A stretch of DNA of 64,000 nt from Naegleria gruberi (GCA_000004985.1 GG738879.1), one strand, 5' to 3'. Positions 1 to 63,405 are shown, numbered from the stretch's first letter. A program made the numbers and translations. Notes: generated from the letters alone by a model not told the origin.

Positions 1-101
1 GAGTATTGAAATTAATTGTAATGTTTTTAACATAATTTAGTATCATTAAGGAGGTACAAAGACAATTTAAAGTTATCTTCAAAAATTCCAATTTTGATTT
101 T

Positions 102-3100
102 ATGAATGAGTTAAAAACAATGACAACTGAGAAGATTGATAAGGAACCTGAATATGTTTTTAATATGAAGGAAGCATCAGATAAAAAGTCAACAATAGTA
201 GATCAAAAGAAAGTTTGCCTCTGTACAAAATTAAGAGTATGCTATTACTATGAAGAAGGAGGAGTCACTCCAGAGGATGAGAGTAGATCTCCCAATTTAA
301 TGAGAAGTAACGATGATAACGTGCGAAGCAATTCTGAGCCATCACCAGTACATGGTGTCGAGTTGCATTTTGATAGATTTGTAGATGGTGCAGTTGTATA
401 TGGACCTTGGGGAGACCACCAGAGAGCATTGCTTCAAGCTTTCTTCTTCCCTCCTCTCTATGAGAATGCAAAGTACTATAGAAAAACAGCAGGACGACAA
501 AGAAAATCTGAAAAATTTGATGTTGAGTTCTATTTTAATGAAAAGACAACTTGGGTATTCCCTTTTATTGCAACACCAAAAACTTTAAGAGAAAAAAAAG
601 AAAATAAGGGCGACGAACAAATTTTGACAATGATTTTTGACAAGAATTCCTTCCTTCACTGGAGTGGTGATATGTATGCTTCTTTAGCAACTAATGAAAC
701 AATTACCAATATTGATTTCAATTTCCCAGGAATGAGTCTAATTACAAGCAATACGCAAGCCACCTTTGGTGAATCAGAGATAGGAAAAGGCCACTTCATT
801 ATGAGAAACTCTGCTGAATGGAATGGCAGAAAGGACTGGACTTTCAATTTTGAAGCAAACAAGTCTACAGTTTATTACACGGCAGGTAAGTTATCAATAT
901 ATTTTCTAATTCTAAAATCATTTATAGAACACATTGGATTCATTATGGATTTAATTAGGGATTGGAGAAATTATCCAAACCAAAAACAAGCAACTTTACT
1001 CGATTTTATTCCCTCTGTATATACATATAATTTTAAACTTTATAACTCAATGCTTAAGATGCATACTAACGACTTGAACATAGTGGAGTTTCCTAATGAC
1101 AGCTCCAAGAATCACTTTTTCTGTATTGATTACCCTCTAATGAGTATCAGTTTTACTGCTCCTGGAGAAGTTTTTTCCCCACCTTCTGTAGAATATTCAT
1201 TCAGTGTAGAGGTTAAGGGTGATGCACAAGTTGACCCTGGAGTACATATGGAATACCCAAAAGATCATCCTGTTCACGAAATGCAAATGGAACCAGGAAA
1301 AAAGTTTTTATGGGGCGAAAGAGCTCATGTACATGGAACCTATACAGTCCATGACAAAATCAATGTCGAAAATGTGGATTCCTGCATAATTAATGTTGAT
1401 TTATTCAATGTAAATTTAATGGTGAACGGATATCACCTCAATTATTTAATTACTATGTGGTTTGACCATTTCACTGCTGAAAGATTTTGGATGTCAGAAT
1501 CTGAATACATTGCAAATGGATATAAGAATGACAAGTCAAAGCAAATATCCAATTTACAATCCACTGATTTGTCGTCCATTCCTTATCCATCTAACCCAAC
1601 CGAATACTTTGTTACCATTAATATCAAACGAGGTATAGTACATTTGCCTCACTCTCTTTATTCGAGAGAAGAATGTACACAACTTATGGGTGAAGAATTT
1701 ACTATGGATATTAGATACGTACCTTCCAGTATTGATTTGTGTTTCAATCTTGGTCAACTTATGGCTGAAATACCAATTAACCCAGATGAAAAAGTAAGGC
1801 CTTCAAAGAAGTTTATTGGTTGTGAAGGAATCAAATTTTTAGCACAATTACCAATTGGACCAAATCCTGATGGGTTACTTTGGAGAAGAAAAATTCACTT
1901 TGATATTGGAGCAATAACTGGTGAAATCACTCCAAGTCAAATTGGTAATATTGTAAATATTGGTCTCAATTTTGTCTATCAGTGGAAATTGGCCTACTTC
2001 CCTAAACCTGACATTACTTTTAAAAAAAGTGATTATTCCAGAAGACAATATTCTTCTGAAGAGTTTGATGAATACTTGATTTGGGATGTTAGAGTAACCT
2101 TTGTTTCTATTTCTGCTGTCATTTCAATGACCAACGGTATGGTCAATATCGATTTAGACAAGGGAATTGATATTAATTTTGATTCACTCAATAATGGATC
2201 ATCCAATTCTAGGCTCAATGTATTGGTACCCTCCATACATGCCAGAATAATGAATGCAAGAGAAACAGGAATGAAAGTAGATGGTGATTGGGTTCAAATT
2301 GGAGAACTATTGTCTGGTCTTAAAGTTGGTATGGAAAAGAAAACTCACGACCTTAAAGAGCACTATTTCAGACAACAAAGGTTCATTCAAAATATGAACG
2401 GAGATTCGTTTGGATTGAATTTTAGTGCTGATAAACAAATGGAAACATCTCTTAACAAACGAGAGATGGAGACAAGTGCTTCAACAAGCAAGAAAAGGTC
2501 CAAAAAAAAGAATCCTTCAAAGAGATCTGTTGCTAAGACTACAACTGAAATTAGTGAAACAGATATTAGCGAAACAGACACAGATGCTGAATTTTTCGAT
2601 ATAGATGATGACGAATTGGAGCTGGAAGAGGAAGAAGAGAAGGTTCAAAAGGTCAGAAAAGTGTTTAATGGTCTAACTTTTCATGATACCGAACTGGGTA
2701 AAACAATTAGTGTAGACTATATTGATAGTATAATTTCAGAAGATGGAAGCCAATTTATAGAAAAGGATGTATTGGACGATAGAGCACAATGGAATCTTAT
2801 TTCGAAATCATCACCAAGTTTATCTACATATTCCAGTTATTTGAAAAATTATTACTATGAACAAGAAAGAGAAAGTCTTATGCCTTTAACATATAATGCT
2901 AAGCAATTTCTTACAGATAGATATCCTCACCATAGAATGGGAATGTACTCTCCTTTCCCTGAATATCACTTAAGAAGAAATAAGAATACTGAAGATTCAA
3001 ATGAGTTACTACCAATAGTATCAAAATTCAGCAAACTTGACATGAAAGATTTTAGAGGACAATTCTATTCATTTTCTTCTGGAAAGGACCGTGAGAATAT

Positions 3101-6100
3101 TGAGAGAATTTTGCAAATCGAAAGTAACTTTACCTCCCAAGAAAAAATTGATCAACAACATATCAACATTGAATTTTTAAAGAATATTGATATTAGCTTT
3201 TCACCAAATGTAATCTCTCTAGTACACCAATTAATCAAATATATAATACTTCCAGATTCAAACCTTCATGCTACAGCTGATCATATCGAAAAGTCAAAGA
3301 AAGTATTCCATCAGGATGTCCCAGAGGAATTATTAGAAGAGAAGAAAACTATTCCAAAATGGGATTTAAAGAAAATTATCTTTTCTGGTGGTGTTAAATG
3401 TGTTAATGTTAACGTTTTACAATCACTCTCTGTACCTAATATTATACCTGAGTCACCTTTACAAGGAACAGTTTCTGCATATTCTATCAAACTTTTTGCT
3501 ACTGATTTTGTAGCTTCTGGATCTGTAACTTTGAGAAAAGTGGAAGAGGAAAAGAAAGTAAGCTCTGAACTATTTTCTATTGAAGGTTTTGGAAAATGTC
3601 TAGAGGTTGGAGGTATTTCTCAGTGCTTAGATAGTAAAACATACCATTACAAAGGTATTGATCCTTCTGAGTTACCACTTTACTTCTTACAAAGGGTAAA
3701 TCTAATACCAGACGCACCAATAGTTGCAGCAATTCTTGTAGAGGACGTTCATTTCCAAGGTAAAAATAATATCAAGGAGGAAAACTCTCAGGGAAGATTT
3801 ACCTGTACAGTAGGAAAGCAAGGTTCTCTAGGATCAGGTGTTTCTGTACTCTTTACTCATGATATAATTGTAATTTCATATTCACTTGTAGAAGTGTGGA
3901 GAAAAGTTATCACAGATATGGTATTGAATGTTAGAAACTATTTGAGGTTACGACACGTCTATGATTTGCTACTACTTAGTCAAGTTTCAAAGAAAGCTGT
4001 ATCCAATACATCAGAAAACCTCTATGGAGTCTTGGAAAAAAAGCAAGCTTTGAAACATTTAAGAGCTTCTCTCTACTCTTTAACTTTTGCTGACTGTAGA
4101 AGTATTCAAAAGTTTATGCATTCTCATATAGGAATGGAAGTTGATTCAAAGGTAGAAATGAGAGCAATAAGAAATGAATACTCTGAATTGATAGAAGACG
4201 AAGACCATGCCCCTCAAATTCATACAAGCAAAACCTCTGTGAGATTGAGAACTGATATCTCTTTCCACTTGGAACGACTTGACCTTTCAGTTCATTCTGT
4301 TGATTTTAAAACAAAAGTTTACACAAAGAGTATTGCAAAGTTTAATGATATTTTAATGAGAGGAAAAGTAGAACATAGTTTGAATCCACTTTTCGAAACT
4401 GAGTACAAGAAATTTGAATCAGAAAATGCACAAAAGATAAGAGATATTTCTCTTATTTTATCAGTGAATTGTAGAGCCTTTAGTATTGATATTCACTCTC
4501 AAACTCTCATCCTTTTAACTTCAGCGCTTGGAGTATTCTTAATTGTTAAAAACAAACCTTTCATTAAAAAGTTGAGAGAAAAAGAAAAAAAGAACAAAAA
4601 CAAAAATCCTCAACAAAACCACGGAGAAATTAAGGAGATAACACACGATGTTTCTGCATCAACCCATGAACCAGAGGGTGAAAAAGAAATACCAGTGTAC
4701 CAAGAAAAAGTAGTCCTAAAACTGAATGTATTTACAAATGTTAATGTACAAAAAGCAACCGCTAGAGCATGGATGGACAAGAATAGTTTTGCAGAACTCA
4801 GTATTGATAAGTTTTCTCTACTCTTCAATCAACCTAAAAGCTCAGAAGAGCACATGCTAGCCATCAATAATGAGGAAAACAAGTCAGAGAAGAAGAGTAA
4901 TCTTAAAATGGTACATAGTAGTAATATTTCCATTAACAAAATTCTATTCCAGTTCAATTATACAACTCCTGAAAAAACAAACGAGAGAACAAAAGAGTTT
5001 ATTTCTCTCTTTGATGTTACTGTGAATGATATTAGACTTAATGAATTTTTATTCAAAGAAAAGGACTTGAATGTGCATGCCTATTTTGCATTTGATAAGC
5101 TTTTAATTAATCTTCCATTTGCTGATGTTTGGTCTGCATCTTCAGTACAATTTAGGCTGTTTGTGAAAACATGGTATGAAGCTATCAAAAGAAAGCCTAA
5201 TTTACCAAGCTTTGACATTTCAAAAGATTCTTCTCAACCAAAACAAGACCAAGAGCAACCCAAATCACCTATTAATTTCAATATTCCTGCAATTAATATT
5301 GTTCTTGATTTGAATGATATTTCTGCATACTTCAAGTTGGTAGATTCTTTCCAAATGAGATATAGTCTCACGAAACTAACAGCTCACTTCAAGCAAAATT
5401 CAAAACTTGACAATAACTTTATGGTACACTTGTTCCCGCATTCGTTTACTTTGAAATCAAAGAATGATGAAGAATTTCCAAACTCCAACAAGTGGGAAGG
5501 TCCAAGAAGCACAACACTTGGTTCGAATGAATTCAGAAAGATTTTCATTCTTCCTGAAGTTATTGTTTCTGGAAGTTTAGAAAATAAGGACAATAATGGT
5601 ACTACACAGAGAATACTTTCCACTTTAATAGCTATTGATTACTTTGAAAATGTGGTTACAAGTGATTTGTTAAATCATGTTATTGTCATTCAATCCGCTG
5701 TTACAAAAGAGATTAACAAGATCATTGAAAGCTTGAATAAGGGTGTTGAAGATTTAGAAAAAATCAAAAACGAATTACCAAAAGCTAAAAAGAATGTCAG
5801 ATCTCTCAATCTTTTCTTTGATGTAAAGCTTTTGTTTGAAGGAATTAGAATCACAGCTCTTGGACCATCTACAGCTCTGGTTGTTGACTCTGGATCAGTT
5901 AATGTTACAGCTTCCAACATTGAACATGTACGAGTCAAGATGTCACTCAAAGGTCTAAATATTAATATGGTAGACACCCACAACATCAAATGGGCAAGTA
6001 CAAGAAAGTACAACAATAGATATTCTGAAACAAGTGAGTGTTACCAGTGGGCCCAATTCCAATCAAACCTTCAAGTTCAAAACTTCCTGGATACTAAATT

Positions 6101-9100
6101 ATCTACAACAGACAAACAATCCACCAAGAATTTCACTCTCGATATTTCAAATACCCATCTATACCTTAGACCTGGATGTATAGAGCAAGCACTATTTTTA
6201 TTTAAAGATTACAAGCAATCAGTCCAAACTGTGTTTGAAAAGTTAAAAGAGGCTAGACAAAAGAATAGATCTGAAGCTTTAACTTCCCTCATCAAGACTG
6301 GAGAAGAATATTATTCATTATATTCTCATCAAATCAAAGAAAAAGTTGCTTCAGATGCTAGTACATTTATTAATTCAGGAGTGGTAAGAATTATGAATAC
6401 CACCCTATCTATGCCATTCGGAGATAATCCATACTTTGGATTCCTCACAAATGAGGGTCCTAATTTCAAACCTACATGCTGTTTACAAGTAATTATTCCA
6501 GCAGTTGGTCTCTCAACAATGTCAGAATCAGAAGATGATGTTAGTGCTACACTAGATACATTGATTTCAACAGGAAAAGACAGTGTTTCCAGTCAAAGAG
6601 TTGCCACTTGTAAGGTGAAGTCTATCAATATTTATCTCGATGAAAAACCCCTAAAGAAATCTAAATATTCCTTTAGTATGCCAACACTTCATGACTTTGA
6701 TCAAGCAAAAACAAAAGGAAAGATTGAGAAAATAATGATGAGCTTGAAGCTAAGAGTCACAACCAACGAAATCAATGGTTCTGGTGTTATTCATGTACCT
6801 GGTCCTGATTTGAATATTTCACCAGTTATAGTTAGAAGAGCTCTTGAACTTGGATATGATTGGTTTAATCCAAAACGAAAAATTTTCAATTCATATGTTG
6901 AATCTCCTAAGACCCAACCACAAAAACAAGACCAAGGTGTAATTACGCCAACGAAAGTAAGAGAACTCACAAAAAGAAAAATTTATTTCCTCATTACTGC
7001 CAACATTCAACCTGGTGTATTTAATTTAGTTCACAATATGACACCAAATACACTCGTTAGACGTAAAATTACAGACGAAACAGCTGTTGCAGTAGAAGGA
7101 AAATTGCCATCAGTTACAGTTACAGCCTTACACAAAAATCCAGGTACGAACACAAACCGATCTACAACACATATTCAAACAGGCATTCATTGGGATGGTG
7201 TTAAACTTCTTCCAAAATCATTATTCTTTGTATTGGAGGCAGTTCATGAGTTTAAACTTTGGTCAAAGGAAGAGCAAAAAAGAAGACAAAATTCTGCAAC
7301 CTACAAGTCAAAAGATCAAAATACTACCGAAATTGAGGATACCAAGGAGGTATTCAAACCTGTTGCATGGATGAGAATGCTTAAATCCGTTCTCCTTGTA
7401 CAAAGAATTTACAGAGGGTTTAGAGCAAGACAACTCGTTAAAAAACTCAGATCCGACAAGAACTTGAGAAGTACTTATCTTAAAAAAACAACAAAGAAGG
7501 AAATCAAAAAGAAAGAAAATGCTTCTCTCCAATCTGATTCCTTCAGTTTGCAATGTAGAATCAATCCTTTTAGAGTTGAACTTTCTTGCTTCCCTCTTGC
7601 AGAAACGGTTACTTGCTTTGAATTCACATCTCCATTCGATATTATTTTGAGTAGAACATTGAGAACTGTACAAACGGGTAATACCAAGGGTACTGCCATT
7701 TACCTTAACGTTTGCCTTTCTTGCCCTATTGCCTTGATAAGATGCTACCATCCTCTATCTCCTACACCATTTGTTATTTTGACAGTAGCAGGAATTATTG
7801 GAAACTTGGGCAGTGGATTTGGAAATTATCTTAGATCTGATGACACTCCGGTATATTCAGGAACTCTTCACGTAAAAAAGGTTTCAGTAGAGGTTAGTCT
7901 ACCACAAATGAACCACTTCTTTATTATGTACACAATTTGGATGGATAAATATGAAGAAGCCAGGAAGTCTCTCAAGATTGTAAGAGGAGATATCAAAACA
8001 ACACCTAAAACTCAATTAGTTGTTCTGACGAACGAAGAGAAAGAAGAGAAAGATCAAAAGAGAAAGAAAATTATTATGGAAGAAATATCCCTTGAATCTA
8101 CCTCATCTAAATTTGGTCAATTATTAATCTCCTCATTCGAAATTGTTAGTGATATGGGTCCAACTCTTGGTAAGCAGAAATTGTATGCTGAAGAAATTTC
8201 CTTGTTCTGCAAAGATAAGGGACGTATAGTTAATGAAATTGAAAGAGAACCATTACATATTGGTGGATACTTAGGAAAATTTGAGGGAACATTTGTTGGA
8301 AGACTTCAAGGTAATATATCGATGAATGGTATTGTAGTTGGGCTAAATAGAACATTCAAGAAAGGAGGTTCATCTCCTACGTATAAGGGATCTAGTGAAG
8401 TGTTTATTACAGCTTTACCAACTCTAATAGATTTGGAGCTCAACTCTGCCAAGATACTCAACATCTCACTCAACACATTATCCATTACATTCTGCGATAT
8501 ATTTGACTCTACAGATGGTAGACAATACCATGTGGAAACATCTGTAAACTCATCTGGAGCAACAGTTCGTCTTTCTAAAATATCTGCATCTGCTTTCATA
8601 TACGTATTCTATAAGATCAAAGAGTTAGCCACTGAAAGAAAGAAAGCTGCATTAGATACTCTCCAAGGATCTGTTAATTTTTATAATACAGAGGATGCCT
8701 CTGAAAAAGAAACAGAAGAAGAAAAATCATTCGAAATCAAATCTCTAAAAATTCAATCTCCAACGAAACAATTTTTATCACTCATTCCAATTGGTGATAT
8801 AGTTTTTAAGGGTGTAAATCTCAAAGTTTACCTTTATGAAAAGTTTACAGTTGAAAAAGATCAATTCGTTCCAGCAGGAGATTGGTTAGAGTTTGGAATG
8901 GATGACTACCAACTAAAGTTCAAACGTAAAGGACTTATGGAGGATAAATCTGTAGAAAGGTCACTGACATTGTTTTTAGCCAAAGTAGCTCTGGATAGAA
9001 TGACTACTCCAAACAAGCGATCATTTATTTTGGAGGTCCCTGGAGCTCACTTAACAATGAACTCATTACAAACAAGATCTATTCCAGATGTAATTAATTA

Positions 9101-9545
9101 TACATTCAAAACCAAGTTCCCTAAGGCCATTACAGTCACCACCAATTTGAATGAATATACATTCTTACAAGGTTTGATGAAGCTCTACAAATCAGAAGTT
9201 ACAAACGAATTGGAGGAACATAAGAAATCTGTACAACAACAATCATCATCTGTAATTTCCCTCACTTCTCAAAAACAAACAACAACAGATACTCAAATAT
9301 CCATATTTGGAATTCCAAAGAGAAAATTCGAAGGTACAATTCAACTAAATCCTAAGCTAAATGTTTTAGGAGATTTAACTCCTCAAGTTCAAACAGTTTT
9401 GTCATGGCTTGGAATTTCTGAAAGTATTATACCAAGAGCAGCTCATGAAGGAGTATCTGACTCTCTTGAGTCAATATTTATCATTTGTTATAGAGCTTCT
9501 GAATTGATGGATAATTTATTTGTTGAATCAACTTATGAAAAATAA
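102..9545 (+). CDS. Giant (>=3147 aa) protein of unknown function; IQ-like motif present; one probable short in-frame intron (about 886..927); may start upstream of window
   Basis: Uninterrupted 9.4-kb ORF in AT-rich DNA. GTAAGT...TTTATAG element of 42 nt at about 886..927 encodes an odd hydrophobic stretch and is a multiple of 3, so frame cannot decide. In-frame stop at 33..35 and an AG at about 39..40 leave the 5' end open. IQ-like LVQRIYRGFRARQLVKKLR near residue 2440. No P-loop, HECT, BEACH or FATC signatures recognised by eye. Confidence 0.55.
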   Translation: MNELKTMTTEKIDKEPEYVFNMKEASDKKSTIVDQKKVCLCTKLRVCYYYEEGGVTPEDESRSPNLMRSNDDNVRSNSEPSPVHGVELHFDRFVDGAVVYGPWGDHQRALLQAFFFPPLYENAKYYRKTAGRQRKSEKFDVEFYFNEKTTWVFPFIATPKTLREKKENKGDEQILTMIFDKNSFLHWSGDMYASLATNETITNIDFNFPGMSLITSNTQATFGESEIGKGHFIMRNSAEWNGRKDWTFNFEANKSTVYYTAGKLSIYFLILKSFIEHIGFIMDLIRDWRNYPNQKQATLLDFIPSVYTYNFKLYNSMLKMHTNDLNIVEFPNDSSKNHFFCIDYPLMSISFTAPGEVFSPPSVEYSFSVEVKGDAQVDPGVHMEYPKDHPVHEMQMEPGKKFLWGERAHVHGTYTVHDKINVENVDSCIINVDLFNVNLMVNGYHLNYLITMWFDHFTAERFWMSESEYIANGYKNDKSKQISNLQSTDLSSIPYPSNPTEYFVTINIKRGIVHLPHSLYSREECTQLMGEEFTMDIRYVPSSIDLCFNLGQLMAEIPINPDEKVRPSKKFIGCEGIKFLAQLPIGPNPDGLLWRRKIHFDIGAITGEITPSQIGNIVNIGLNFVYQWKLAYFPKPDITFKKSDYSRRQYSSEEFDEYLIWDVRVTFVSISAVISMTNGMVNIDLDKGIDINFDSLNNGSSNSRLNVLVPSIHARIMNARETGMKVDGDWVQIGELLSGLKVGMEKKTHDLKEHYFRQQRFIQNMNGDSFGLNFSADKQMETSLNKREMETSASTSKKRSKKKNPSKRSVAKTTTEISETDISETDTDAEFFDIDDDELELEEEEEKVQKVRKVFNGLTFHDTELGKTISVDYIDSIISEDGSQFIEKDVLDDRAQWNLISKSSPSLSTYSSYLKNYYYEQERESLMPLTYNAKQFLTDRYPHHRMGMYSPFPEYHLRRNKNTEDSNELLPIVSKFSKLDMKDFRGQFYSFSSGKDRENIERILQIESNFTSQEKIDQQHINIEFLKNIDISFSPNVISLVHQLIKYIILPDSNLHATADHIEKSKKVFHQDVPEELLEEKKTIPKWDLKKIIFSGGVKCVNVNVLQSLSVPNIIPESPLQGTVSAYSIKLFATDFVASGSVTLRKVEEEKKVSSELFSIEGFGKCLEVGGISQCLDSKTYHYKGIDPSELPLYFLQRVNLIPDAPIVAAILVEDVHFQGKNNIKEENSQGRFTCTVGKQGSLGSGVSVLFTHDIIVISYSLVEVWRKVITDMVLNVRNYLRLRHVYDLLLLSQVSKKAVSNTSENLYGVLEKKQALKHLRASLYSLTFADCRSIQKFMHSHIGMEVDSKVEMRAIRNEYSELIEDEDHAPQIHTSKTSVRLRTDISFHLERLDLSVHSVDFKTKVYTKSIAKFNDILMRGKVEHSLNPLFETEYKKFESENAQKIRDISLILSVNCRAFSIDIHSQTLILLTSALGVFLIVKNKPFIKKLREKEKKNKNKNPQQNHGEIKEITHDVSASTHEPEGEKEIPVYQEKVVLKLNVFTNVNVQKATARAWMDKNSFAELSIDKFSLLFNQPKSSEEHMLAINNEENKSEKKSNLKMVHSSNISINKILFQFNYTTPEKTNERTKEFISLFDVTVNDIRLNEFLFKEKDLNVHAYFAFDKLLINLPFADVWSASSVQFRLFVKTWYEAIKRKPNLPSFDISKDSSQPKQDQEQPKSPINFNIPAINIVLDLNDISAYFKLVDSFQMRYSLTKLTAHFKQNSKLDNNFMVHLFPHSFTLKSKNDEEFPNSNKWEGPRSTTLGSNEFRKIFILPEVIVSGSLENKDNNGTTQRILSTLIAIDYFENVVTSDLLNHVIVIQSAVTKEINKIIESLNKGVEDLEKIKNELPKAKKNVRSLNLFFDVKLLFEGIRITALGPSTALVVDSGSVNVTASNIEHVRVKMSLKGLNINMVDTHNIKWASTRKYNNRYSETSECYQWAQFQSNLQVQNFLDTKLSTTDKQSTKNFTLDISNTHLYLRPGCIEQALFLFKDYKQSVQTVFEKLKEARQKNRSEALTSLIKTGEEYYSLYSHQIKEKVASDASTFINSGVVRIMNTTLSMPFGDNPYFGFLTNEGPNFKPTCCLQVIIPAVGLSTMSESEDDVSATLDTLISTGKDSVSSQRVATCKVKSINIYLDEKPLKKSKYSFSMPTLHDFDQAKTKGKIEKIMMSLKLRVTTNEINGSGVIHVPGPDLNISPVIVRRALELGYDWFNPKRKIFNSYVESPKTQPQKQDQGVITPTKVRELTKRKIYFLITANIQPGVFNLVHNMTPNTLVRRKITDETAVAVEGKLPSVTVTALHKNPGTNTNRSTTHIQTGIHWDGVKLLPKSLFFVLEAVHEFKLWSKEEQKRRQNSATYKSKDQNTTEIEDTKEVFKPVAWMRMLKSVLLVQRIYRGFRARQLVKKLRSDKNLRSTYLKKTTKKEIKKKENASLQSDSFSLQCRINPFRVELSCFPLAETVTCFEFTSPFDIILSRTLRTVQTGNTKGTAIYLNVCLSCPIALIRCYHPLSPTPFVILTVAGIIGNLGSGFGNYLRSDDTPVYSGTLHVKKVSVEVSLPQMNHFFIMYTIWMDKYEEARKSLKIVRGDIKTTPKTQLVVLTNEEKEEKDQKRKKIIMEEISLESTSSKFGQLLISSFEIVSDMGPTLGKQKLYAEEISLFCKDKGRIVNEIEREPLHIGGYLGKFEGTFVGRLQGNISMNGIVVGLNRTFKKGGSSPTYKGSSEVFITALPTLIDLELNSAKILNISLNTLSITFCDIFDSTDGRQYHVETSVNSSGATVRLSKISASAFIYVFYKIKELATERKKAALDTLQGSVNFYNTEDASEKETEEEKSFEIKSLKIQSPTKQFLSLIPIGDIVFKGVNLKVYLYEKFTVEKDQFVPAGDWLEFGMDDYQLKFKRKGLMEDKSVERSLTLFLAKVALDRMTTPNKRSFILEVPGAHLTMNSLQTRSIPDVINYTFKTKFPKAITVTTNLNEYTFLQGLMKLYKSEVTNELEEHKKSVQQQSSSVISLTSQKQTTTDTQISIFGIPKRKFEGTIQLNPKLNVLGDLTPQVQTVLSWLGISESIIPRAAHEGVSDSLESIFIICYRASELMDNLFVESTYEK

Positions 9546-9569
9546 ATAATTTAATTACTCGATATGCAT

Positions 9570-11576
9570 TTAGTCTGAAATTCCTTCATTCCTCTGCCGC
9601 ACTATTTCTTTAGCTTTCTTCACTCTCTTGCTAAGCTTTGCTTTCATCTTTGAAAGAAGCATAAATCTGTCTACAACTTTCATTTCACGACCAACAGTAA
9701 TAGCGCCAGCAATTTCTTGGTCTGTTGAAATTTCAATCTTATCAACTTGAGTAACAAATGGCCATTTACCATTCATTGTTATCCAAGCATGTTCCTTAAT
9801 CTCCTTAATTGTAATTCTTCTATGTGGATCCTTGCAGAATAACCTAGTTAATAAATCTTGCAGATCTGGCTCTATATTTTCAGGTATTTCTGGCTCGTCA
9901 TTAAGAATAGCATTATACATTCCAAGAATACCTGGTCCAAAAAATGGCAGTCTACCATACAGCATAACAAATAATGTAACACCTGCTGCCCAAATATCAG
10001 ATGCATAGCCACTGTACGATCCAACATGACAAGCTTCTGGCGAAAGGAAAGCCGGAGTACCGGGTGCTGTGTTAAAAGTATCATTGTCTCCTTCTAACAT
10101 TGAACTAACACCAAAATCTGTAATCTTTAATCTGTCATCCTTTGTTACTAACACATTTTCAGGCTTAATATCTCTATGTACAATTTTGTTTTCGTGCAAA
10201 TATTCTAATCCGCAAATAAGGTCTCGGTAATATCTTCTACACGTTTCTTCTGTAAAAGCTGGTCTATCGGTTTTATCTTTAGATATAATTTTCATTAAAC
10301 ATCCACTTTCAATATATTCAAAAACAAGGAACAGCTTATCAATCTTTGGATCGTCTATCACTTCATAAAGTTCCACGACATTTGGATGATGAAGTTTCTT
10401 AAGAATTGAAACTTCTTTCATCAATATCATTAAACTTGAATTATCCTTATCCTTAACTGGCCTTCCTAGCTTGTCCTTCTTTTTCAAATCTTTCAAAATG
10501 GACTTGTTAATAATTTTCAAAGCACATAATTCACCAGTATCACTCTTCTTACAAAGCTTAACTTTTCCATGCATACCTCTACCAATCTTTTTAATAACGA
10601 CATACTCATTGACAGTTTTCTTACCATCTTGATCTACACCTGTAGATAAAGTGGTTGTCATGTGAACTTGTCTCTTTGTTCTTGGTGAAGACCCTTCGGT
10701 TTCAGATCCACCAGTTGAAAGTGCACCTGAACTACTGTAACCTTCTTCATCAGAATAAGGTGAGAGCCCATTTGGAATATTCAACTTTGGCTCTTGTAGT
10801 ATAGTAGATGAAGCAGGATTTTCCTTTTCTTCCTTTCCAGTATCTTCTTGTTCTGGTTTATCATCTTCAATTTCAAACTTTTTCAAGCTCCTAGATTTTG
10901 GACTAGCAATATTTACAATTGATTTTCTATCATCTGCATCCTGACCATTATCAGAATCGATGAATTTATCTTTAGATATACTTCTATTCACTGAAGAAGC
11001 ATTAGATCGTTTCCTTCTTAATTTCTTGCCTGAATTCTTCATCGATCTTGTTGAGGTTCTTACAGGTTGTTCAATTTCCTCCGAAGAAGATGAAGAATGA
11101 GAAGCTATTGGATTACCAATAGCAAAATCATCCTTAGTGAATGTGAATGAGCTCGCCTGTTGTATTGTTTTATGAGACCAGAAACGTCTTAATTCCTGTG
11201 GCGATTCCGTTTGAACACCTTTATCTTGTGGAGGTCCTTTTGATATTAATTGTTGTAATAATTGCAATTGCTCAGAATTTATCATTACTAAAATATTTTC
11301 CAATCCAACAACCTCCTGATTTTGTTGAAGGTTAATATATTGTGAGCTTGAATTTGGTAAGTTACTATTTGTTGTGGGAAGTAAAAAAGAAGATGAAGAG
11401 GATTCATGTTGAGTTGATGCACTAATCCCCTTAGTCGGGTGATAACGATGAGAACCTCTCTCTGATGAATCATTATTTAGAAAAGGTTGGTTAAGTTGAA
11501 CGTAATCGTTGTCATCTTTAGCCTCCCCAGGAATAACACGATTAGAATGATGTGGAACACAGCAAGCTTGTCCCAT
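9570..11576 (-). CDS. Ca2+/calmodulin-dependent protein kinase kinase (CaMKK)-like Ser/Thr kinase with long Ser-rich N-terminal region
   Basis: Kinase domain IGRGMHGKVKL...HRDIKPENVLV...DFGVS...GTPAFLSPE with the Arg/Pro/Lys-rich insert after subdomain II typical of CaMKK; close to animal CaMKK by eye. First ATG of the ORF is MGQACCV; the track start upstream is a GTG codon. Single exon. Confidence 0.75.
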   Translation of the reverse strand: MGQACCVPHHSNRVIPGEAKDDNDYVQLNQPFLNNDSSERGSHRYHPTKGISASTQHESSSSSFLLPTTNSNLPNSSSQYINLQQNQEVVGLENILVMINSEQLQLLQQLISKGPPQDKGVQTESPQELRRFWSHKTIQQASSFTFTKDDFAIGNPIASHSSSSSEEIEQPVRTSTRSMKNSGKKLRRKRSNASSVNRSISKDKFIDSDNGQDADDRKSIVNIASPKSRSLKKFEIEDDKPEQEDTGKEEKENPASSTILQEPKLNIPNGLSPYSDEEGYSSSGALSTGGSETEGSSPRTKRQVHMTTTLSTGVDQDGKKTVNEYVVIKKIGRGMHGKVKLCKKSDTGELCALKIINKSILKDLKKKDKLGRPVKDKDNSSLMILMKEVSILKKLHHPNVVELYEVIDDPKIDKLFLVFEYIESGCLMKIISKDKTDRPAFTEETCRRYYRDLICGLEYLHENKIVHRDIKPENVLVTKDDRLKITDFGVSSMLEGDNDTFNTAPGTPAFLSPEACHVGSYSGYASDIWAAGVTLFVMLYGRLPFFGPGILGMYNAILNDEPEIPENIEPDLQDLLTRLFCKDPHRRITIKEIKEHAWITMNGKWPFVTQVDKIEISTDQEIAGAITVGREMKVVDRFMLLSKMKAKLSKRVKKAKEIVRQRNEGISD

Positions 11577-11919
11577 GATACTTTGTTCCACACAATATAA
11601 ACTTTGTTTTTTTTCTTTTGATATTGATATACAGTTATCAGTAAGGGCCGAGCGAAAATGTGGTTCTTTCAGTTGGTGGCAGTTTGGTAATCCTTATTCT
11701 CCAACTTGCCTATTTTTGTTGAAATATGTGAGTAGTGTGTTTGTTGTTGAAAACTTGGAAGCGAACTGAATTGTAATAAGTAACATGAACATTATATTTA
11801 CAATGTCTCGATAACCATTAAGGTTTCAAGTAGGTTTTATAATCAATGTACAATATTGGATCAATAATTTGATTCCATAAAAAAGAATACAATAGATATT
11901 TGAATTAGATGTTGTAAAA

Positions 11920-12621
11920 TTACTCAACTTCTTCCAAATAATCTTTAACTTCAGCTGGTGTCAAAACACGGAAAAGCTTATCCTTTCCAACAATACCAAT
12001 TTCAATATTCTTACTGTTGATTTGTCCATCAAAACCTTCTTTCAAGGTTAAAATAGCTGTGTGAATAGCATCTTCCAATTCAATATCAGAGGAATAACGC
12101 TTTTCCAAAAATGTATTAGCATTGACCATGTTCTTTCCAATTGCTGAAGCTTTCCAAGCCCAATATGATCCACTAGGATCAACTTGATACAAATGTGGAC
12201 CAGTATCATCAAAACCAGCAATTAATAAACTCACTCCAAATGGTCTGACACCACCACTTTGTGTGTATTCTTGCATCACTGAGGCAAGATGTTTGACTAA
12301 TTGAGAGACTGGAATACGTTCCTTATAAATTCTATAGTATTCTTCGGCGTGTTTTCTTCCTTGTTTTGCCAGAACACGTGAATCTGGACCCATTCCACTG
12401 TAAACCATTCCAATATGATCAGTGAGTGGAGTAACCTTTTGAAGAGAATTATGATCAACAAGTGGAGAAGGAAGCTTCTTTTCAGTTGCAACTACAACAC
12501 CATTTGTTGCTTTTATAGCCAAAGATGTACTACCAGCCTGTACTGCATTAAGAGCATATTCGATTTGTACAAGTTTTCCGGAAGGTGAAAATGTAGTTAA
12601 TGAAAATGATGTATCAGACAT
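11920..12621 (-). CDS. PSMA2: 20S proteasome subunit alpha type-2
   Basis: 233-aa single-exon ORF; near-identical blocks to human PSMA2 ([55 protein letters not shown]). Confidence 0.9.
12574..12610. repeat. Copy A of a ~35-bp direct duplication (coding 5' end of PSMA2)
   Basis: ttttccggaaggtgaaaatgta[g]ttaatgaaaatg is found here and again at 12838..12872 with 2 mismatches. Confidence 0.7.
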
Positions 12622-12837
12622 TTTTTATGATTGATTAAACTAAAATATTTTATTGTATGAATTAAAAATAGCACATTTTTGCGGTCAAGTAAAAAAGACT
12701 TGGTACAGCTGGATACAAATGTTTGATACTATGTGCTAATTCTGAAATAAAATTAGCATGTGTTGTTTTTTTGTTTTAATGTTAATTGGTTCATCATCAC
12801 TAGCAGGATGAGTAAGCTGTAGATTTACAATGCATCT

Positions 12838-12872
12838 TTTCCGGAAGGTGAAAATGTATTTAATGAAAATGG
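12838..12872. repeat. Copy B of the duplication, lying in the PSMA2 upstream (promoter/5'UTR) region
   Basis: Same ~35-nt string as 12574..12610; on the minus strand it reads a degenerate ...FSLNTFSPSGK... followed by a stop, so it is not a functional exon as it stands. Confidence 0.7.
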
Positions 12873-12916
12873 ATGTTCTCAAGACGTTTCTGTACCAACC
12901 TCATCAACAATAAAAA

Positions 12917-14481
12917 ATGGCTCCAATACCAGAGTTAGAGGATGATGGTTCACTTCATGATTCGGAGAGAGACGTTTCTATGAAGGAAACACCTGCTCCT
13001 ACAAGAAAGAAAAACCAAAGCCACAAGAGAAAGAGTACAGATGATGAAGCTGTAGAGGATGCTAAAAAGAGAAAATCAAACCCTACGGAAGAGGAACAAA
13101 CAATATTGGAAGAGGAAACTTTTAGAACGGATACACCTTTCCAATCTCCTGATGTTAGGAGAAAATCAACAGGATTAAGAACTAAACCACAACAACTTAA
13201 TCAACAAGTATTCGTAAATCGCAAACATAAAAGTGTGCCTAGTAATGTTTTGGATGCAAACACATCCTATCAAACCCCTAAGAAAACTAATATTGAAGCT
13301 GAAGTTCCCCCATCCATTTCAACATTCATTCCAGAGAAACAATTCGCTATTTCAAGAAATAAGGCATCTAAAACGGGCACTTACACTATTTTAGCATCTC
13401 TAGTAGCTATTATTTCTATTGTATATTTAATATACGTTCAATATGTAACATTAGATATTCCTAAAACTAACGTAACTGAAGAAAGTAACTTATCCAATAA
13501 TACTCAAAACTCTGCTCCAATAATTAAGTACTTTTATGTAACTAACAATGTTACTAGTAATGTAAATCACTCTGAAATCTTTGAAAAATTAATTGAAAAA
13601 CATTCAAAACAATTCAAAAATAATATGCTAGATTTAATTGATACTAGATTGTATGAATTAGAAAGAAAGCTCAATAATAATATTAGAAGTTCAATCTCAA
13701 GCTCATCTGTTTCAGTGAAGAAGGAACAACAAAAAGAATTGGAAAAATTGAAAGAATCTCTTTTATCTAAAATATCAACAGAAGTTGACATTATTTTAAG
13801 TCAAAAACTCAAATCCATTAATGATATCAACGAACAATCAATCAGCGAAATCAAAGGAAGACTAGATACTATCATACCAGGTGTTAAGAATTTGATTGAT
13901 GAATCTCTTGATAAATATGATGCTGACAAGATTGGTTTGACAGATTATGCACTCAGTAGTCTTGGTTCAAAGATTGTTGAACATTCTCCAACTTATTCAC
14001 CATCAAAGTTTTGGCCTCAACTCTTTGTTCCTGTAAAGACACCCGACATGATAATCAAACCAGATACAACTATTGGTAATTGTTGGCCTATGAAAGGATC
14101 TAGTGGTTTTGTTGTTATTGAAATAGCTCATTCTATTATTCCAACCTCTTTTTCAATTGATCACGTTCCAAAAGCTCTTTCTCCAAATATTTCATCTGCT
14201 CCTAAACAAATTTCAGTCTTTGGATATGAAAATGAAACTACCTTAACTAAGCTGTCTGCATTTGAGTATGATGTTCATGGCTCTCCTACCCAAACCTTCC
14301 CAGGTAAGCATTATTTTTGTTTTGAATTGTTTTACCTTATTTTTATTTAGTAAATGAAAGTACAAATAAGAAATATAACAAATTCAGATTCCAAATCAGT
14401 GGTAACTATGGAAATAGTTTTTATACATGCATTTACAGATTCAGAATTCATGGTGACTCACAAGCTATGATGTTACATTAA
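12917..14481 (+). CDS. SUN-domain (Sad1/UNC-84) inner nuclear membrane protein; 2 exons (12917..14303, 14351..14481)
   Basis: TM helix, coiled coil and a C-terminal SUN domain (GNCWPMKGSSGFVVIEIAHSIIP...). Splicing a 47-nt GTAAGC...TTATTTAG intron restores the conserved SUN C-terminus ...YTCIYRFRIHGD (compare human SUN1 YTCLYRFRVHG). Confidence 0.8.
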
Positions 14482-14530
14482 AATTGCTCAACTGAAAGCC
14501 AAGTCTGGCTTTAATAAAAATCTTTAAAAA

Positions 14531-15255: not shown

Positions 15256-15299
15256 ATGGACTTTGCCGCCAAAAACATTTACGTTTTTATCATCAAAAA

Positions 15300-17616
15300 A
15301 TGCAAACAGTGCATAAACTCAAGTCAATCAAACAATTACGAGAGAATCAACCCTACAGTGGTTTACTATTGGAATGTATTCCCAATCCTGTAATTTTTGA
15401 ATACTATGAGGAGTTTGGAAAATATGAAATGGTATTGGAGATTTTAAATAGATCTGCAATACCTACAGCAATCCGACAAAAATCAAATTCTTCCAAATAT
15501 TTCAAAGTGAGAAGAGTGGATGCTAGTGAGGGTAAAATTGCTCCAGGATTATCAGCCAAATTCTTAGTATCTTTTTTCCCTGATTCACTTCTGGATTTTA
15601 CTGATGAAATAACATTTATCAGTGCATCCAAAGATGAAGTAGTTTTACCACTTCTAGGGAGAAGGAAAAGACCTTTACTTACCCTTCCGAGAATAATTAA
15701 TCTAGGTTATTGTTTAACAGGAACTGAAATTAGCAAGCAAATAGTGTGTAAAAATCAAGGAGGAAAAGGAAAATTTATATTTCAACAAGAATACTCGGAT
15801 CAAACAAACATCAAATTCCTTTTCTCAACACAAAATGAATTTGAGAAGGATATGGAAATTGTGGAAAAAGCACCATTTTTCGTTTCCCCAAAGTATTTCA
15901 GCCTTAATGAAGAAGAAGAGGCGCTCGTGACAGTTACCTTTAGACCAGAAGTAGTAGGGGAACAAAGCCAATCAATATTTATTATATTTGACAATGAGCA
16001 GGTATTTGAAATTCAATTAGTAGCTGAGGCTCAATATCCTAGGATTAATCTTTGCTCAATGGCAAAGAGAAAAGACTTCTTACCAGAAAGAGATTCAACT
16101 CTATTGTGTTTTGAAACAGTCTATCCATATCAAAAATCAGAATCCCAATTACTTACTCATTACAATAGCAGTGATGTGTCAGTTGAATTCGAGTGGAGAT
16201 ATATCAATGAATACGCTGACACTCCAATCTCATCGAATGGGATTAATCTTCCTTTCATGGTTAAACCAAGTATTGGAAAGATTAAACCAAGAAGTTGTAT
16301 GGCATTTGAAGTTACATTTACCCCTCAGTCATTGGGAGTATTCTCGGGATACTTCATTCTGTTTGTAAATAATGTACCTTTGCCGGTTTCCTCTGACCAC
16401 CCTTATTTTTATTACTTTAAATCGGGATTTTCATGGTTTAGAGACAGTATTCTAAATTCTCTAAAGACCTCTGATCCTCTCAGATACTTTACCCCTTACA
16501 GCTCTGAGGTTGCTGAAATTGAGAATGAATCAAAAGCAATTGCCTTAGGAGAGTCAAACTTGGTTAGTTTTGGTTCTGTACCAGTGTTTCATTGTAGACT
16601 ATTTGGTGACACAAAGAAATTGGAGGTAACTCTAAATCCACCAATTATCAATTTGAGCAATAGTATTTTTATTGGGGAAATTGTGGAAAAACAAGTGGTG
16701 ATTGTGAATAGTTCTGATTTTGATGCTTATTTTAGATGGCTTGTTTGTGAGGAGGATGATGGTCTAAAGACAGAATTTGATCCTCCTAGTGGAGTTATAG
16801 GGCCAAAAGAAAGAGTTCCAATTAAGATTTTCATTTCATGTTCAAAGCCTCAAGCATTCAACCTTTCTTGCATTTGTGAAATTGCAAACTCCGAAGAAAT
16901 AGAGCTACTGTTAAGAGGAGAAAGCAAGCCTCAGACTTTAAGAATTGACACACCATGTCTAGATATGGGGATAATTGAAACTGGAAAAGTTGTTACCGAT
17001 TGTGTGCAGATAACAAACACTTCTTCCTTAGATTTAAATTGGGCTTGTTCAACAATAGAGAATAATGCTGTCACAGTTATTCCATTCGAGGGATGCTTGC
17101 CAATAGGTAAAAGTTGTCTTGTAAACGTAAGAGTTAAGTCAGCTTATCCTCAATTCATTCAACAAATATTACGATTCGATGTTGAAAATGGAATTTCTCA
17201 ATATGTTGGTCTTAACGCCGAAATCCAATCACCTCAAGTGGTATTGGAGGAATATTTCTTTAATGTTGGAGAAATAACAATTGGCGAGTAAGTATTTATT
17301 GTTTTTGTTTGTTACTCACAACATTTTCAGTGTTGTCACAAGAACTATTAGAATGAAAAGCGTTTCTAGCATTAGTACTGAATTCTGCTGGTATGATCTC
17401 AAATTAATAGAAGACAGACCATACGAAATAGAATTCATAAATGAGAAAGGAAAATTGCAATTGGGAGAGGAAGCCGAAACAATTATAGAAATAAGAGCAA
17501 TTGCAAAAGCAGCATTATTCGAAGAACTTTTCCCATGTTTTCTTCAAGATAGCAAAGATAATTATTTTGGAATCAAGATAGTAGGAAGTATAAAGGAAGA
17601 AAATACACTAGATTAG
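15300..17616 (+). CDS. ASH/MSP-fold repeat protein resembling the N-terminus of hydin/CFAP221 (ciliary central-pair type); 2 exons (15300..17287, 17331..17616)
   Basis: N-terminal pattern YxxFxxYEMxLxIxN...YFKV...GKIAPG...F...FxP...LDF...F closely follows the hydin N-terminal ASH domain. A 43-nt GTAAGT...TTTTCAG intron joins the 663-aa ORF to the 17281..17616 ORF in frame. Product about 767 aa. Confidence 0.55.
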
Positions 17617-60343: not shown

Positions 60344-60576
60344 TTTATTAGTATTATTATTATTAACAACTTGGTGATGAATGTGAAGAGGTTCACCAGC
60401 AAGCAAATCGAGAGATGATGTAAATTTTTTAGGCTTGATCTTTCAATACAATTTCAGCCTTGTTTTCGTAAGTACCCGGCAGAGAAGATAAAATTCAGTG
60501 TCAAACATAATTGGCGCCAATCAAACTACAACAACAACAATAACACTAAGAAGATTAAAAACAAAGAATTATAAAA

Positions 60577-63354: not shown

Positions 63355-63405
63355 TATTTTTTGAACATCACATTAATATAATTTATTTGTTCTTTTTGTA
63401 ATAAA

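What the first reader, a model, noticed from the sequence alone, without database searches (positions are those of the whole stretch)
102..17616. Giant unknown protein next to a hydin/CFAP221-like ASH protein, with ciliary genes dispersed elsewhere
The window encodes a hydin-N-terminus-like ASH-domain protein (15300..17616), a CCDC39-like axonemal ruler (44689..47428) and a calmodulin-like EF-hand protein (60577..61038), so the organism builds motile cilia. The >3100-aa protein at 102..9545 has an IQ calmodulin-binding-like motif but none of the catalytic signatures of the usual giant proteins. Central-pair C1d projection proteins (CFAP54 about 3100 aa, CFAP46) that partner with CFAP221 are plausible identities. 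Bridge-like lipid-transfer proteins (VPS13/BLTP1) and SZT2-like scaffolds are alternatives.
Basis: inference. Interest (0 to 1): 0.5.

Follow-up and report, generated by a model that had tools for sequence, protein, structure and literature searches.

The report
Naegleria BLTP1/Csf1 lipid-bridge protein gene
The giant gene is not a ciliary protein: it is the Naegleria gruberi copy of BLTP1/Csf1/Tweek, an ancient ER-anchored "bridge" protein thought to pipe lipids between membranes, ordinary apart from a conserved calmodulin-binding-type IQ motif shared with other Heterolobosea and a jakobid.

Summary
The 3147-codon ORF at 102..9545 is real. It is most of N. gruberi gene NAEGRDRAFT_69657 (XP_002675221, an unnamed "predicted protein"). 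About 286 N-terminal residues, including the transmembrane anchor, lie upstream of the window.

It is an orthologue of BLTP1/Csf1/Tweek:
- Pfam BLTP1_N and BLTP1_C both match.
- A profile built from three heterolobosean sequences hits one solved structure only, C. elegans LPD-3 (BLTP1, 9CAP), at E 5.5e-17.
- AlphaFold models of two ~1100-aa segments match 9CAP at E 1e-43 and 6e-11, followed by Vps13, Atg2 and TamB grooves.
- Nothing matches CFAP54, CFAP46, VPS13-specific or SZT2 families.

The gene is not adjacent to the ASH gene: a kinase, a proteasome alpha subunit and a SUN-domain gene lie between them. The ASH protein is DLEC1/FAP81-like rather than hydin/CFAP221-like. The "CCDC39-like" gene is CCDC40/FAP172.

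The one new point is the IQ motif (aa 2433-2446). It sits in a loop insertion conserved in all heteroloboseans sampled and in the jakobid Andalucia, and is absent from Diplonema, Amoebozoa, fungi and insects. This suggests, but does not show, binding of calmodulin or a related light chain. Interest is low to moderate.

The parts
41..885 (+). BLTP1/Csf1 gene, internal exon. The gene is cut at its 5' end by the window edge. Base 41 completes a split Asp codon after the AG acceptor at 39-40.
   Evidence: The translation of 42..101 (IIKEVQRQFKVIFKNSNFDF) equals residues 267-286 of the N. gruberi protein P0001. An in-frame stop lies at 33-35.
886..927 (+). 42-nt in-frame intron with no stop codon (GTAAGT...TATAG).
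   Evidence: The encoded 14 aa (GKLSIYFLILKSFI) are absent from the N. gruberi model and from the N. lovaniensis and Willaertia orthologues. The boundaries are canonical GT..AG. The segment is low-confidence in the AF2 model.
928..9545 (+). Main BLTP1/Csf1 exon through the stop codon (9543..9545).
   Evidence: It is 99% identical to P0001, 69% to N. lovaniensis and 55% to Willaertia over the full length. The ORF's C-terminus is conserved to the end in both orthologues.
228..1271 (+). Region matching Pfam BLTP1_N (profile positions 290-599) and PDB 9CAP LPD-3 residues 315-534.
   Evidence: BLTP1_N E 1.4e-9, 36.6 bits, on ORF aa 43-390. Stretch 2 of the heterolobosean profile against 9cap_A has E 2e-4. 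AF2 plus Foldseek against 9cap_A gives E 1e-43.
2394..3101 (+). Long low-complexity, probably disordered loop (aa 765-1000) rich in acidic and basic runs.
   Evidence: pLDDT is below 50 across aa 765-1000 of the AF2 model. The sequence was printed. Length variation through disordered loops is typical of the family (PMC7613979).
5622..6224 (+). Region matching Pfam BLTP1_C (PF25040), ORF aa 1841-2041.
   Evidence: 41.4 bits against a curated cut-off of 23, E 3.1e-11.
7356..7451 (+). Conserved helix carrying the IQ motif (aa 2419-2450, KPVAWMRMLKSVLLVQRIYRGFRARQLVKKLR), inside a loop insertion between C-terminal beta-groove units.
   Evidence: There is one strict IQ consensus match, expected in 0.8% of shuffles. 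Pfam IQ scores 17.9 bits against a 20.3 cut-off. The motif sits at the same alignment position in Naegleria, Willaertia, Percolomonas, three metagenomic relatives and Andalucia godoyi. It is absent from Diplonema, Amoebozoa, fungi and insects. It is predicted helical at low confidence.
8871..9542 (+). Conserved extreme C-terminal region of the family (ORF aa ~2924-3147).
   Evidence: The heterolobosean C-terminal profile matches the extreme C-termini of 3000-5000-aa proteins from Andalucia (annotated CSF1), Tieghemostelium (Csf1_N-containing), Mastigamoeba, Diplonema and Galdieria.

Best explanation
The ORF is the bulk of the Naegleria gruberi orthologue of BLTP1 (yeast Csf1, fly Tweek, worm LPD-3, human KIAA1109). 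The complete protein is about 3400 aa.

Shown here:
- A single N-terminal transmembrane helix, encoded upstream of the window.
- A long run of amphipathic beta-strands that models as the repeating-beta-groove (RBG) rod of LPD-3.
- Disordered loops interrupting the rod.
- The family's conserved C-terminal region at the far end.

Inferred from the family: the helix anchors the protein in the ER, and the rod spans a membrane contact site, probably ER to plasma membrane. Phospholipids slide along the hydrophobic groove in bulk, supporting membrane expansion and lipid remodelling. The protein is not an axonemal component.

A lineage-specific addition is a conserved IQ-motif helix in a C-terminal loop. 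The inferred, untested role is to recruit calmodulin or a calmodulin-like light chain, which could couple lipid flow or tethering to Ca2+.
For: Identity of the gene:
- 3022/3052 residues are identical to N. gruberi XP_002675221 / NAEGRDRAFT_69657.

Family membership:
- The full-length model scores 106.4 bits on Pfam BLTP1_N (cut-off 100) and 93.5 bits on Csf1_N.
- Window pieces alone hit BLTP1_N (E 1.4e-9) and BLTP1_C (41.4 bits, cut-off 23).
- phmmer and profile searches recover only fungal Csf1 and insect BLTP1/KIAA1109/tweek.
- The only PDB sequence hit is 9cap_A, LPD-3/BLTP1. It scores E 4e-30 with the mixed profile and E 5.5e-17 with a profile of three heterolobosean sequences only.

Fold:
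- The AF2 model of aa 1-1100 (pTM 0.61) matches 9cap_A by Foldseek at E 1e-43, TM 0.48, over 840 columns.
- The model of aa 2050-3147 matches 9cap_A at E 6e-11, followed by TamB, Vps13 and Atg2 grooves.
- Predicted strands alternate hydrophobic and polar residues more than any of 2000 permutations.

Other features:
- The N-terminal 19-aa window has Kyte-Doolittle hydropathy 3.16 at residues 12-30 of the full protein.
- The C-terminal profile reaches the C-termini of the Andalucia 'CSF1' protein and of orthologues from other supergroups.

Family mechanism:
- LPD-3 is a lipid-filled tunnel anchored at the ER (10.1101/2024.06.21.600134).
- LPD-3 mediates ER-to-PM lipid trafficking (PMC9649747).
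- Tweek/Csf1 dates to LECA and carries a TM helix at its N-terminus (PMC7613979).
Against: - No lipid-transfer, localisation or expression data exist for the Naegleria protein.
- The N-terminal anchor and the strongest BLTP1_N match lie outside the window and are known only from a gene model that is wrong elsewhere.
- Mean pLDDT of the two models is only 60 and 51.5. About 950 aa in the middle were not modelled, so continuity of the groove is not shown.
- The whole ORF submitted as one query gave no Pfam hit. Csf1_N and IQ both score just under their curated cut-offs.
- The IQ helix might simply be a structural loop-cap helix.
Confidence: 0.9

Rival explanations
1. It is a giant central-pair (C1d) projection protein such as CFAP54 or CFAP46 that works with a neighbouring CFAP221-like ASH protein.
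For: - The size, about 3100 aa, resembles CFAP54.
- The organism builds flagella, and the window holds ciliary genes: DLEC1-like, CCDC40 and a JHY-domain gene.
- C1d is known to bind calmodulin (my own knowledge), and the protein has an IQ motif.
Against: - No Pfam ciliary family matches.
- No hit to any chain of the central-apparatus entries 7n6g, 7sqc or 9ijj, which the ASH neighbour does hit.
- Sequence, profile and fold evidence all point to BLTP1.
- The ASH gene is DLEC1/FAP81-like (CFAP221 only E 7e-5), is separated by three unrelated genes, and eukaryotic gene order carries little functional information.
Confidence: 0.01
2. It belongs to a different RBG family (VPS13, ATG2, BLTP2/Hobbit or BLTP3/SHIP164) rather than BLTP1.
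For: Foldseek also returns the Vps13 and Atg2 N-terminal fragments and TamB, at E 1e-5 to 1e-2. All RBG proteins share the groove fold.
Against: - The Pfam hits are BLTP1-specific (BLTP1_N, Csf1_N, BLTP1_C). No chorein_N, VAB, ATG_C or Apt1/Fmp27 domains match.
- The 9CAP match is more than 30 orders of magnitude better than Vps13.
- All sequence homologues are Csf1/BLTP1.
- An N-terminal TM helix fits BLTP1 or BLTP2, not VPS13 or ATG2 (PMC7613979).
Confidence: 0.03
3. It is a BLTP1 orthologue, but the IQ-like helix is a structural or membrane-binding amphipathic element and not a calmodulin-binding site.
For: - Pfam IQ is below its cut-off, 17.9 against 20.3 bits.
- Willaertia deviates at the last consensus position.
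- The helix is basic and is followed by a Lys-rich tail, which could bind acidic lipids.
- LPD-3 has 'loop-caps' closing the groove.
- No calmodulin is reported in the native LPD-3 complex.
Against: - The residues conserved from Naegleria to Andalucia are the IQ consensus positions themselves (I/V-Q, R-G, R), while the surrounding loop is free to vary.
- A chance strict match is expected in only 0.8% of shuffles.
Confidence: 0.5

Closest known systems
C. elegans LPD-3 (BLTP1), PDB 9CAP
   Same: It is the only solved structure hit by sequence profile (E 5.5e-17 to 4e-30) and the top fold match for both modelled segments (E 1e-43 and 6e-11). It shares the N-terminal TM helix, the RBG beta-taco rod and collinear matches at the N-terminus, at residues ~315-534 and weakly at the extreme C-terminus.
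   Different: LPD-3 is about 4300 aa against about 3400 aa here. Sequence identity is only 7-13% over the structural alignments. LPD-3 has no IQ insertion. Its partners Spigot and Intake were not looked for in Naegleria.
Fungal Csf1 (e.g. S. cerevisiae Csf1, 2958 aa)
   Same: Size is similar. Identity is 21-23% over the regions that align locally, 16-24% of the query. Eleven sequences share invariant residues along the whole length. BLTP1_N and Csf1_N match.
   Different: The Pfam Csf1_C model (PF25038) present in fungal proteins is not detected in the heterolobosean proteins. Fungal proteins have no IQ insertion.
Andalucia godoyi 'Protein CSF1' (ANDGO_01526, 3889 aa; jakobid)
   Same: It is the closest non-heterolobosean relative found with the C-terminal profile (E 6e-25). 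It carries an IQ motif (IQKVFRGSLVRRWI), preceded by the same AW-containing helix, at the homologous loop.
   Different: It is longer, with a much larger loop after the IQ helix. Overall similarity is low.
Drosophila Tweek / human BLTP1 (KIAA1109)
   Same: They belong to the same family by profile search, E 1e-50 to 1e-64. The family shares an N-terminal TM helix followed by an RBG rod (PMC7613979).
   Different: The animal proteins are about 5000 aa with many extra loops and lack the IQ insertion. KIAA1109-deficient fibroblasts show longer cilia and faster resorption, an indirect membrane effect and not an axonemal role (PMC6411657).
Yeast Vps13 (RBG superfamily), which binds the EF-hand protein Cdc31/centrin
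   Same: The groove fold is the same at superfamily level (6cbc hits). From my own knowledge, and not tested here, it sets a precedent for an EF-hand protein bound to a bridge-like lipid transporter.
   Different: It is a different family. Vps13 has no TM anchor, starts with a chorein_N domain, and its accessory domains (VAB, ATG_C, PH) are absent here.
CFAP54 / CFAP46 (central-pair C1d)
   Same: Only approximate size and the presence of a possible calmodulin-binding motif.
   Different: There is no detectable sequence or fold similarity. From my own knowledge, those proteins are largely alpha-helical repeat proteins, whereas the models here are beta-strand rich.

Membership tests
BLTP1 / Csf1 / Tweek | Match to the Pfam N-terminal family model BLTP1_N (PF20413) at or above the gathering score | tested here: met
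   The full-length N. gruberi model scores 106.4 bits (cut-off 100) and N. lovaniensis 112.5 bits. The window part alone gives 36.6 bits, E 1.4e-9, because most of the matched region lies upstream.
BLTP1 / Csf1 / Tweek | Match to Pfam BLTP1_C (PF25040) | tested here: met
   ORF aa 1841-2041 score 41.4 bits against a cut-off of 23, E 3.1e-11. Only the first ~215 of 1938 profile positions are matched.
BLTP1 / Csf1 / Tweek | Pfam Csf1_N (PF21678) and Csf1_C (PF25038), the fungal-type models | tested here: inconclusive
   Csf1_N scores 93.5 bits against a cut-off of 98 in N. gruberi and 101.6 bits in N. lovaniensis. Csf1_C is not detected.
BLTP1 / Csf1 / Tweek | Single N-terminal transmembrane helix (ER anchor) | tested here: met
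   Residues 12-30 of P0001 (VAFVICAVLLMAFIVIYVL) have mean Kyte-Doolittle hydropathy 3.16. The helix lies outside the window and is known only from the annotated protein. ER localisation was not tested.
BLTP1 / Csf1 / Tweek | Rod of repeating beta-groove (RBG) units resembling the solved LPD-3 structure | tested here: met
   AF2 plus Foldseek against 9cap_A gives E 1e-43 (TM 0.48, 840 columns) for aa 1-1100 and E 6e-11 for aa 2050-3147. Strands are amphipathic, with 0 of 2000 permutations reaching the observed alternation. The middle ~950 aa were not modelled.
BLTP1 / Csf1 / Tweek | Homologues retrieved are BLTP1 family members and no other family competes | tested here: met
   All hits are Csf1/BLTP1/KIAA1109/tweek. 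The only PDB sequence hit is LPD-3.
BLTP1 / Csf1 / Tweek | Bulk phospholipid transfer at ER-PM or ER-organelle contact sites | not testable with these tools
   This needs localisation and lipid-transfer assays.
CFAP54 / CFAP46 (C1d central-pair projection) | Sequence similarity to CFAP54/FAP54 or CFAP46/FAP46 (Pfam models; chains in central-apparatus structures) | tested here: not met
   No Pfam hit. No PDB hit by phmmer or by two profiles, although the same database returned the central-apparatus entries 7n6g, 7sqc and 9ijj for the neighbouring ASH protein. That those entries contain FAP54/FAP46 chains rests on my own knowledge.
VPS13 / ATG2 | Chorein_N start, VAB repeats, ATG_C, no TM anchor | tested here: not met
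   None of these Pfam domains is detected, and a TM helix is present. Resemblance is at fold level only, E 1e-5.
IQ calmodulin-binding motif (PF00612) | Consensus [FILV]Qxxx[RK]Gxxx[RK]xx[FILVWY] and the Pfam gathering score | tested here: inconclusive
   The strict consensus is met once (aa 2433-2446) and is conserved across Heterolobosea and Andalucia. Pfam scores 17.9 bits, below the 20.3 cut-off. Binding was not tested.
Hydin / CFAP221 (for the neighbouring ASH protein 15300..17616) | Best similarity to hydin N-terminus or CFAP221 | tested here: not met
   The best PDB hit is DLEC1 (9ijj_O, E 5.4e-46). FAP81 scores 6e-23, hydin 6e-24 and CFAP221 only 7e-5. Pfam Ig_Dlec1_1 and Ig_DLEC1_6th are above their cut-offs.

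The most novel reading that the evidence does not exclude
BLTP1 of Heterolobosea and jakobids carries a conserved IQ motif in a C-terminal loop. The motif would recruit calmodulin or a calmodulin-like light chain, making a bridge-like bulk lipid transporter directly Ca2+-responsive. In Naegleria this could gate lipid supply to the plasma and flagellar membranes during the rapid amoeba-to-flagellate transformation. I found no report of an IQ motif or calmodulin binding for any BLTP in the searched literature.
Probability: 0.3. Interest if true: 0.5.

Novelty: new member of a known kind. Interest (0 to 1): 0.2.

Why it matters
The main value is a correction. It prevents a 3400-aa protein from being filed as an axonemal central-pair component. 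It gives the unnamed N. gruberi gene NAEGRDRAFT_69657 a well-supported identity as the BLTP1/Csf1 lipid bridge. This adds Heterolobosea to the lineages (Trypanosoma and Trichomonas in PMC7613979) that argue for BLTP1 in the last eukaryotic common ancestor.

The analysis also repairs the public gene model: one real 42-nt intron, one falsely spliced segment and a wrong C-terminus.

The conserved IQ insertion is a small but testable lead on how bridge-like lipid transporters might be regulated, which remains an open question for the family.

Tried and rejected
- The whole 3147-aa ORF scanned against Pfam gave nothing at E<=0.01. Only when it was cut into ~1000-aa pieces did BLTP1_N and BLTP1_C appear. 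A negative on a giant low-complexity protein is therefore not reliable.
- Single-sequence phmmer of the full protein against the PDB gave only noise, Rpn12 at E 0.1. Profiles were needed.
- CFAP54/CFAP46, VPS13 and SZT2: no sequence or fold support.
- I tried to fetch the upstream DNA and the scaffold with the look-up of encoding contigs, using P0001, the EF-hand ORF and the Cdc6-like ORF. None is on record.
- I looked for expression or proteome data by gene ID. No paper holds NAEGRDRAFT_69657, and the Naegleria differentiation RNA-seq preprint has no supplements held.
- A literature search for BLTP together with IQ motif found nothing relevant.
- I considered foreign DNA for the 13-18% GC blocks at the 3' end of the window. 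The best homologue of the GH85 gene there is from Naegleria fowleri, so vertical descent is more likely.


Full report
**Source and observation.** The window is about 33% GC nuclear DNA with long, nearly intron-free genes. The ORF at 102..9545 (+) is real, at 3147 codons. Its product shares 3022 of 3052 aligned residues with the Naegleria gruberi "predicted protein" XP_002675221 / EFC42477 / UniProt D2VL45 / NAEGRDRAFT_69657. The organism is therefore the amoeboflagellate N. gruberi.

The window's M1 is residue 287 of that 3327-aa model. Upstream in frame there is a stop at 33-35 and an AG acceptor at 39-40. Bases 42..101 encode the preceding 20 residues of the model. The gene therefore enters the window in the middle of an intron, and about 286 N-terminal residues lie outside it.

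**Gene structure.** I aligned the ORF with the N. gruberi model and with the N. lovaniensis (69% identity) and Willaertia magna (55%) orthologues. Three points follow.
- Bases 886..927 are a genuine 42-nt in-frame GTAAGT..TAG intron. Its 14 codons are missing from all three proteins.
- The 14 codons at 4911..4952, which the public model splices out, are conserved in both orthologues and are therefore coding.
- The public model's C-terminus is wrong from about 9252 onwards. The uninterrupted ORF reading is conserved to the last residues in both orthologues.

The corrected protein is about 3420 aa.

**Identity from sequence.**
- The whole ORF gave no Pfam hit.
- The full-length N. gruberi and N. 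lovaniensis proteins pass the gathering score of BLTP1_N (106.4 and 112.5 bits, cut-off 100). They score 93.5 and 101.6 bits on Csf1_N, whose cut-off is 98.
- Cutting the window ORF into pieces reveals BLTP1_N on aa 43-390 (E 1.4e-9) and BLTP1_C on aa 1841-2041 (41.4 bits, cut-off 23).
- phmmer against 5.8 billion proteins finds, beyond the three heteroloboseans, only ~3100-aa fungal-type proteins carrying BLTP1_N, Csf1_N and Csf1_C.
- A profile of these sequences recovers fungal Csf1 and insect BLTP1/KIAA1109/tweek at E 1e-50 to 1e-64.
- Against all PDB chains, the mixed profile hits one sequence only: 9cap_A, the C. elegans LPD-3 (BLTP1) complex, at E 4e-30.
- A profile made only from the window ORF and the two heterolobosean orthologues hits the same single chain at E 5.5e-17. 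The match is collinear, with stretches at the N-terminus and at window aa ~84-316.
- A profile of the heterolobosean C-terminal 1100 aa was searched exhaustively against 1.84 billion representatives. It matches the extreme C-termini of 3000-5000-aa proteins from Andalucia godoyi (annotated "Protein CSF1"), Tieghemostelium lacteum (Csf1_N-containing), Mastigamoeba, Diplonema and Galdieria.

**Identity from structure.**
- AlphaFold2 models were built with a 24-sequence alignment. The model of ORF aa 1-1100 has pTM 0.61 and is confident over aa ~40-760. The model of aa 2050-3147 is confident over model residues ~430-800, that is ORF aa ~2480-2850. Both show long beta-strands punctuated by helices.
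- Foldseek against the PDB returns 9cap_A first for both models: E 1e-43, TM 0.48 over 840 columns, and E 6e-11.
- The next hits are the Vps13 and Atg2 N-terminal fragments and TamB, which are the other lipid-groove proteins.
- The predicted strands alternate hydrophobic and polar residues more strongly than any of 2000 within-strand permutations, as expected for a sheet with one greasy face.
- Residues 12-30 of the full protein form a strongly hydrophobic helix, with Kyte-Doolittle hydropathy 3.16. This matches the N-terminal ER anchor described for Tweek/Csf1 (PMC7613979).

**Mechanism.** What is shown is an N-terminal TM helix, an RBG rod with LPD-3-like geometry, disordered loops (for example aa 765-1000) and the family's C-terminal region.

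What is inferred from the family is the function. LPD-3 is an ER-anchored tunnel filled with ordered lipids (10.1101/2024.06.21.600134). LPD-3 mediates ER-to-PM phospholipid trafficking and cold resilience (PMC9649747). Csf1 supports lipid remodelling (10.1101/2025.11.20.689427). The most likely function in Naegleria is therefore bulk phospholipid transfer from the ER across a contact site.

**Ciliary hypothesis.** No ciliary Pfam family matches the giant protein, and neither does any chain of the central-apparatus structures. The neighbouring ASH protein hits those same structures readily.
- The ASH protein at 15300..17291, continuing to 17616, is DLEC1/FAP81-like. DLEC1 scores E 5.4e-46, hydin 6e-24 and CFAP221 only 7e-5.
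- It is not adjacent to the giant gene. A protein kinase, a proteasome alpha subunit and a SUN-domain gene lie between them.
- The "CCDC39-like" gene is CCDC40/FAP172, E 9e-97.
- The EF-hand gene is a divergent calmodulin-like protein, ~69 bits to calmodulins.

The window does hold flagellar genes, but they are scattered among housekeeping genes and say nothing about the giant protein. The only literature link between BLTP1 and cilia that I found is indirect. KIAA1109-deficient fibroblasts ciliate normally but have longer cilia that resorb faster (PMC6411657).

**The IQ motif.** VQRIYRGFRARQLV (aa 2433-2446) is the only strict IQ consensus match in the ORF, and such a match is expected in 0.8% of shuffles. 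Pfam IQ is just below threshold, at 17.9 against 20.3 bits.

The conservation pattern is the more informative part. The motif and a preceding "KPxAWM" helix sit in a loop insertion that is conserved while the flanking loop sequence varies.
- It is present at the same alignment position in N. lovaniensis, Willaertia, Percolomonas cosmopolitus and three metagenomic relatives.
- It is also present in the jakobid Andalucia godoyi (IQKVFRGSLVRRWI) and a related metagenomic protein.
- It is absent from Diplonema, dictyostelids, Mastigamoeba, fungi and insects.

No calmodulin or IQ motif is mentioned in the LPD-3 complex paper or elsewhere in the searched literature in connection with BLTPs. Binding of a calmodulin-type protein is a reasonable but untested inference. 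A purely structural or lipid-binding helix is about equally likely.

**Verdict.** The finding resolves into a known, ancient family. It is a new and so far unnamed member, with a corrected gene model and one lineage-specific feature worth a bench test. It is not a ciliary protein, and its position near ciliary genes is coincidental.

Noticed in passing
window 4911..4952 and 9252..9545: The public N. gruberi gene model (XP_002675221) appears wrong in two places. It splices out 14 codons that are conserved in the N. lovaniensis and Willaertia orthologues. It also replaces the conserved ~98-aa C-terminus with a short unrelated tail.
   Followed up: yes
window 57600..60400 and 62000..64000: Two blocks of 13-22% GC lie in an otherwise ~33% GC window, yet they carry long Asn-rich ORFs. 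One is a GH85 endo-beta-N-acetylglucosaminidase with an FBA domain (57180..59285 and 59486..60406, minus strand). The other is a Cdc6/ORC1-like AAA+ ATPase (61828..63354). The GH85 ORF's best homologue is a Naegleria fowleri protein at only 44% identity, and no N. gruberi protein was returned. These genes therefore seem to be missing from the public annotation. The cause of the compositional shift is unexplained.
   Followed up: partly
window 15300..17616 (+): The ASH/Ig-repeat protein is DLEC1/FAP81-like, a central-apparatus protein (PDB 9ijj_O, E 5e-46). It is not hydin- or CFAP221-like. At ~750 aa it is much shorter than mammalian DLEC1 (1741 aa), and it has an intron near 17291.
   Followed up: partly
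window 44689..47170 (-): The coiled-coil gene is the CCDC40/FAP172 half of the 96-nm axonemal ruler (E 9e-97), not CCDC39. It is split into at least two ORFs (45392..47170 and 44689..45264), presumably by an intron.
   Followed up: partly
window 52707..53837 (+): This ORF carries a JHY domain (Pfam E 3.8e-12). From my own knowledge, the family is linked to ependymal cilia and hydrocephalus in mouse.
   Followed up: no
window 102..9545: Method note: hmmscan of the whole 3147-aa ORF against Pfam returned no family at E<=0.01, whereas ~1000-aa pieces of the same ORF hit BLTP1_N (E 1e-9) and BLTP1_C (E 3e-11). Giant low-complexity proteins should be scanned in pieces.
   Followed up: yes
window 9570..14350, 42508..44658 and 54094..55893: The other genes are ordinary housekeeping genes. 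They are a Ser/Thr kinase (9570..11591, minus), a proteasome alpha subunit (11920..12621, minus), a SUN-domain protein (12917..14350), CDC20/Fizzy (42508..44658) and a zf-C2H2_jaz plus dsRBD protein (54094..55893, minus).
   Followed up: no
P0121 (1179 aa; representative-library hit, outside the window): The C-terminal profile also pulled in an unrelated protein with eight tandem IQ motifs (IQKIWRGFKVRK...), matched only through the IQ helix. This shows that the Naegleria segment is IQ-like enough to cross-hit genuine IQ arrays.
   Followed up: no
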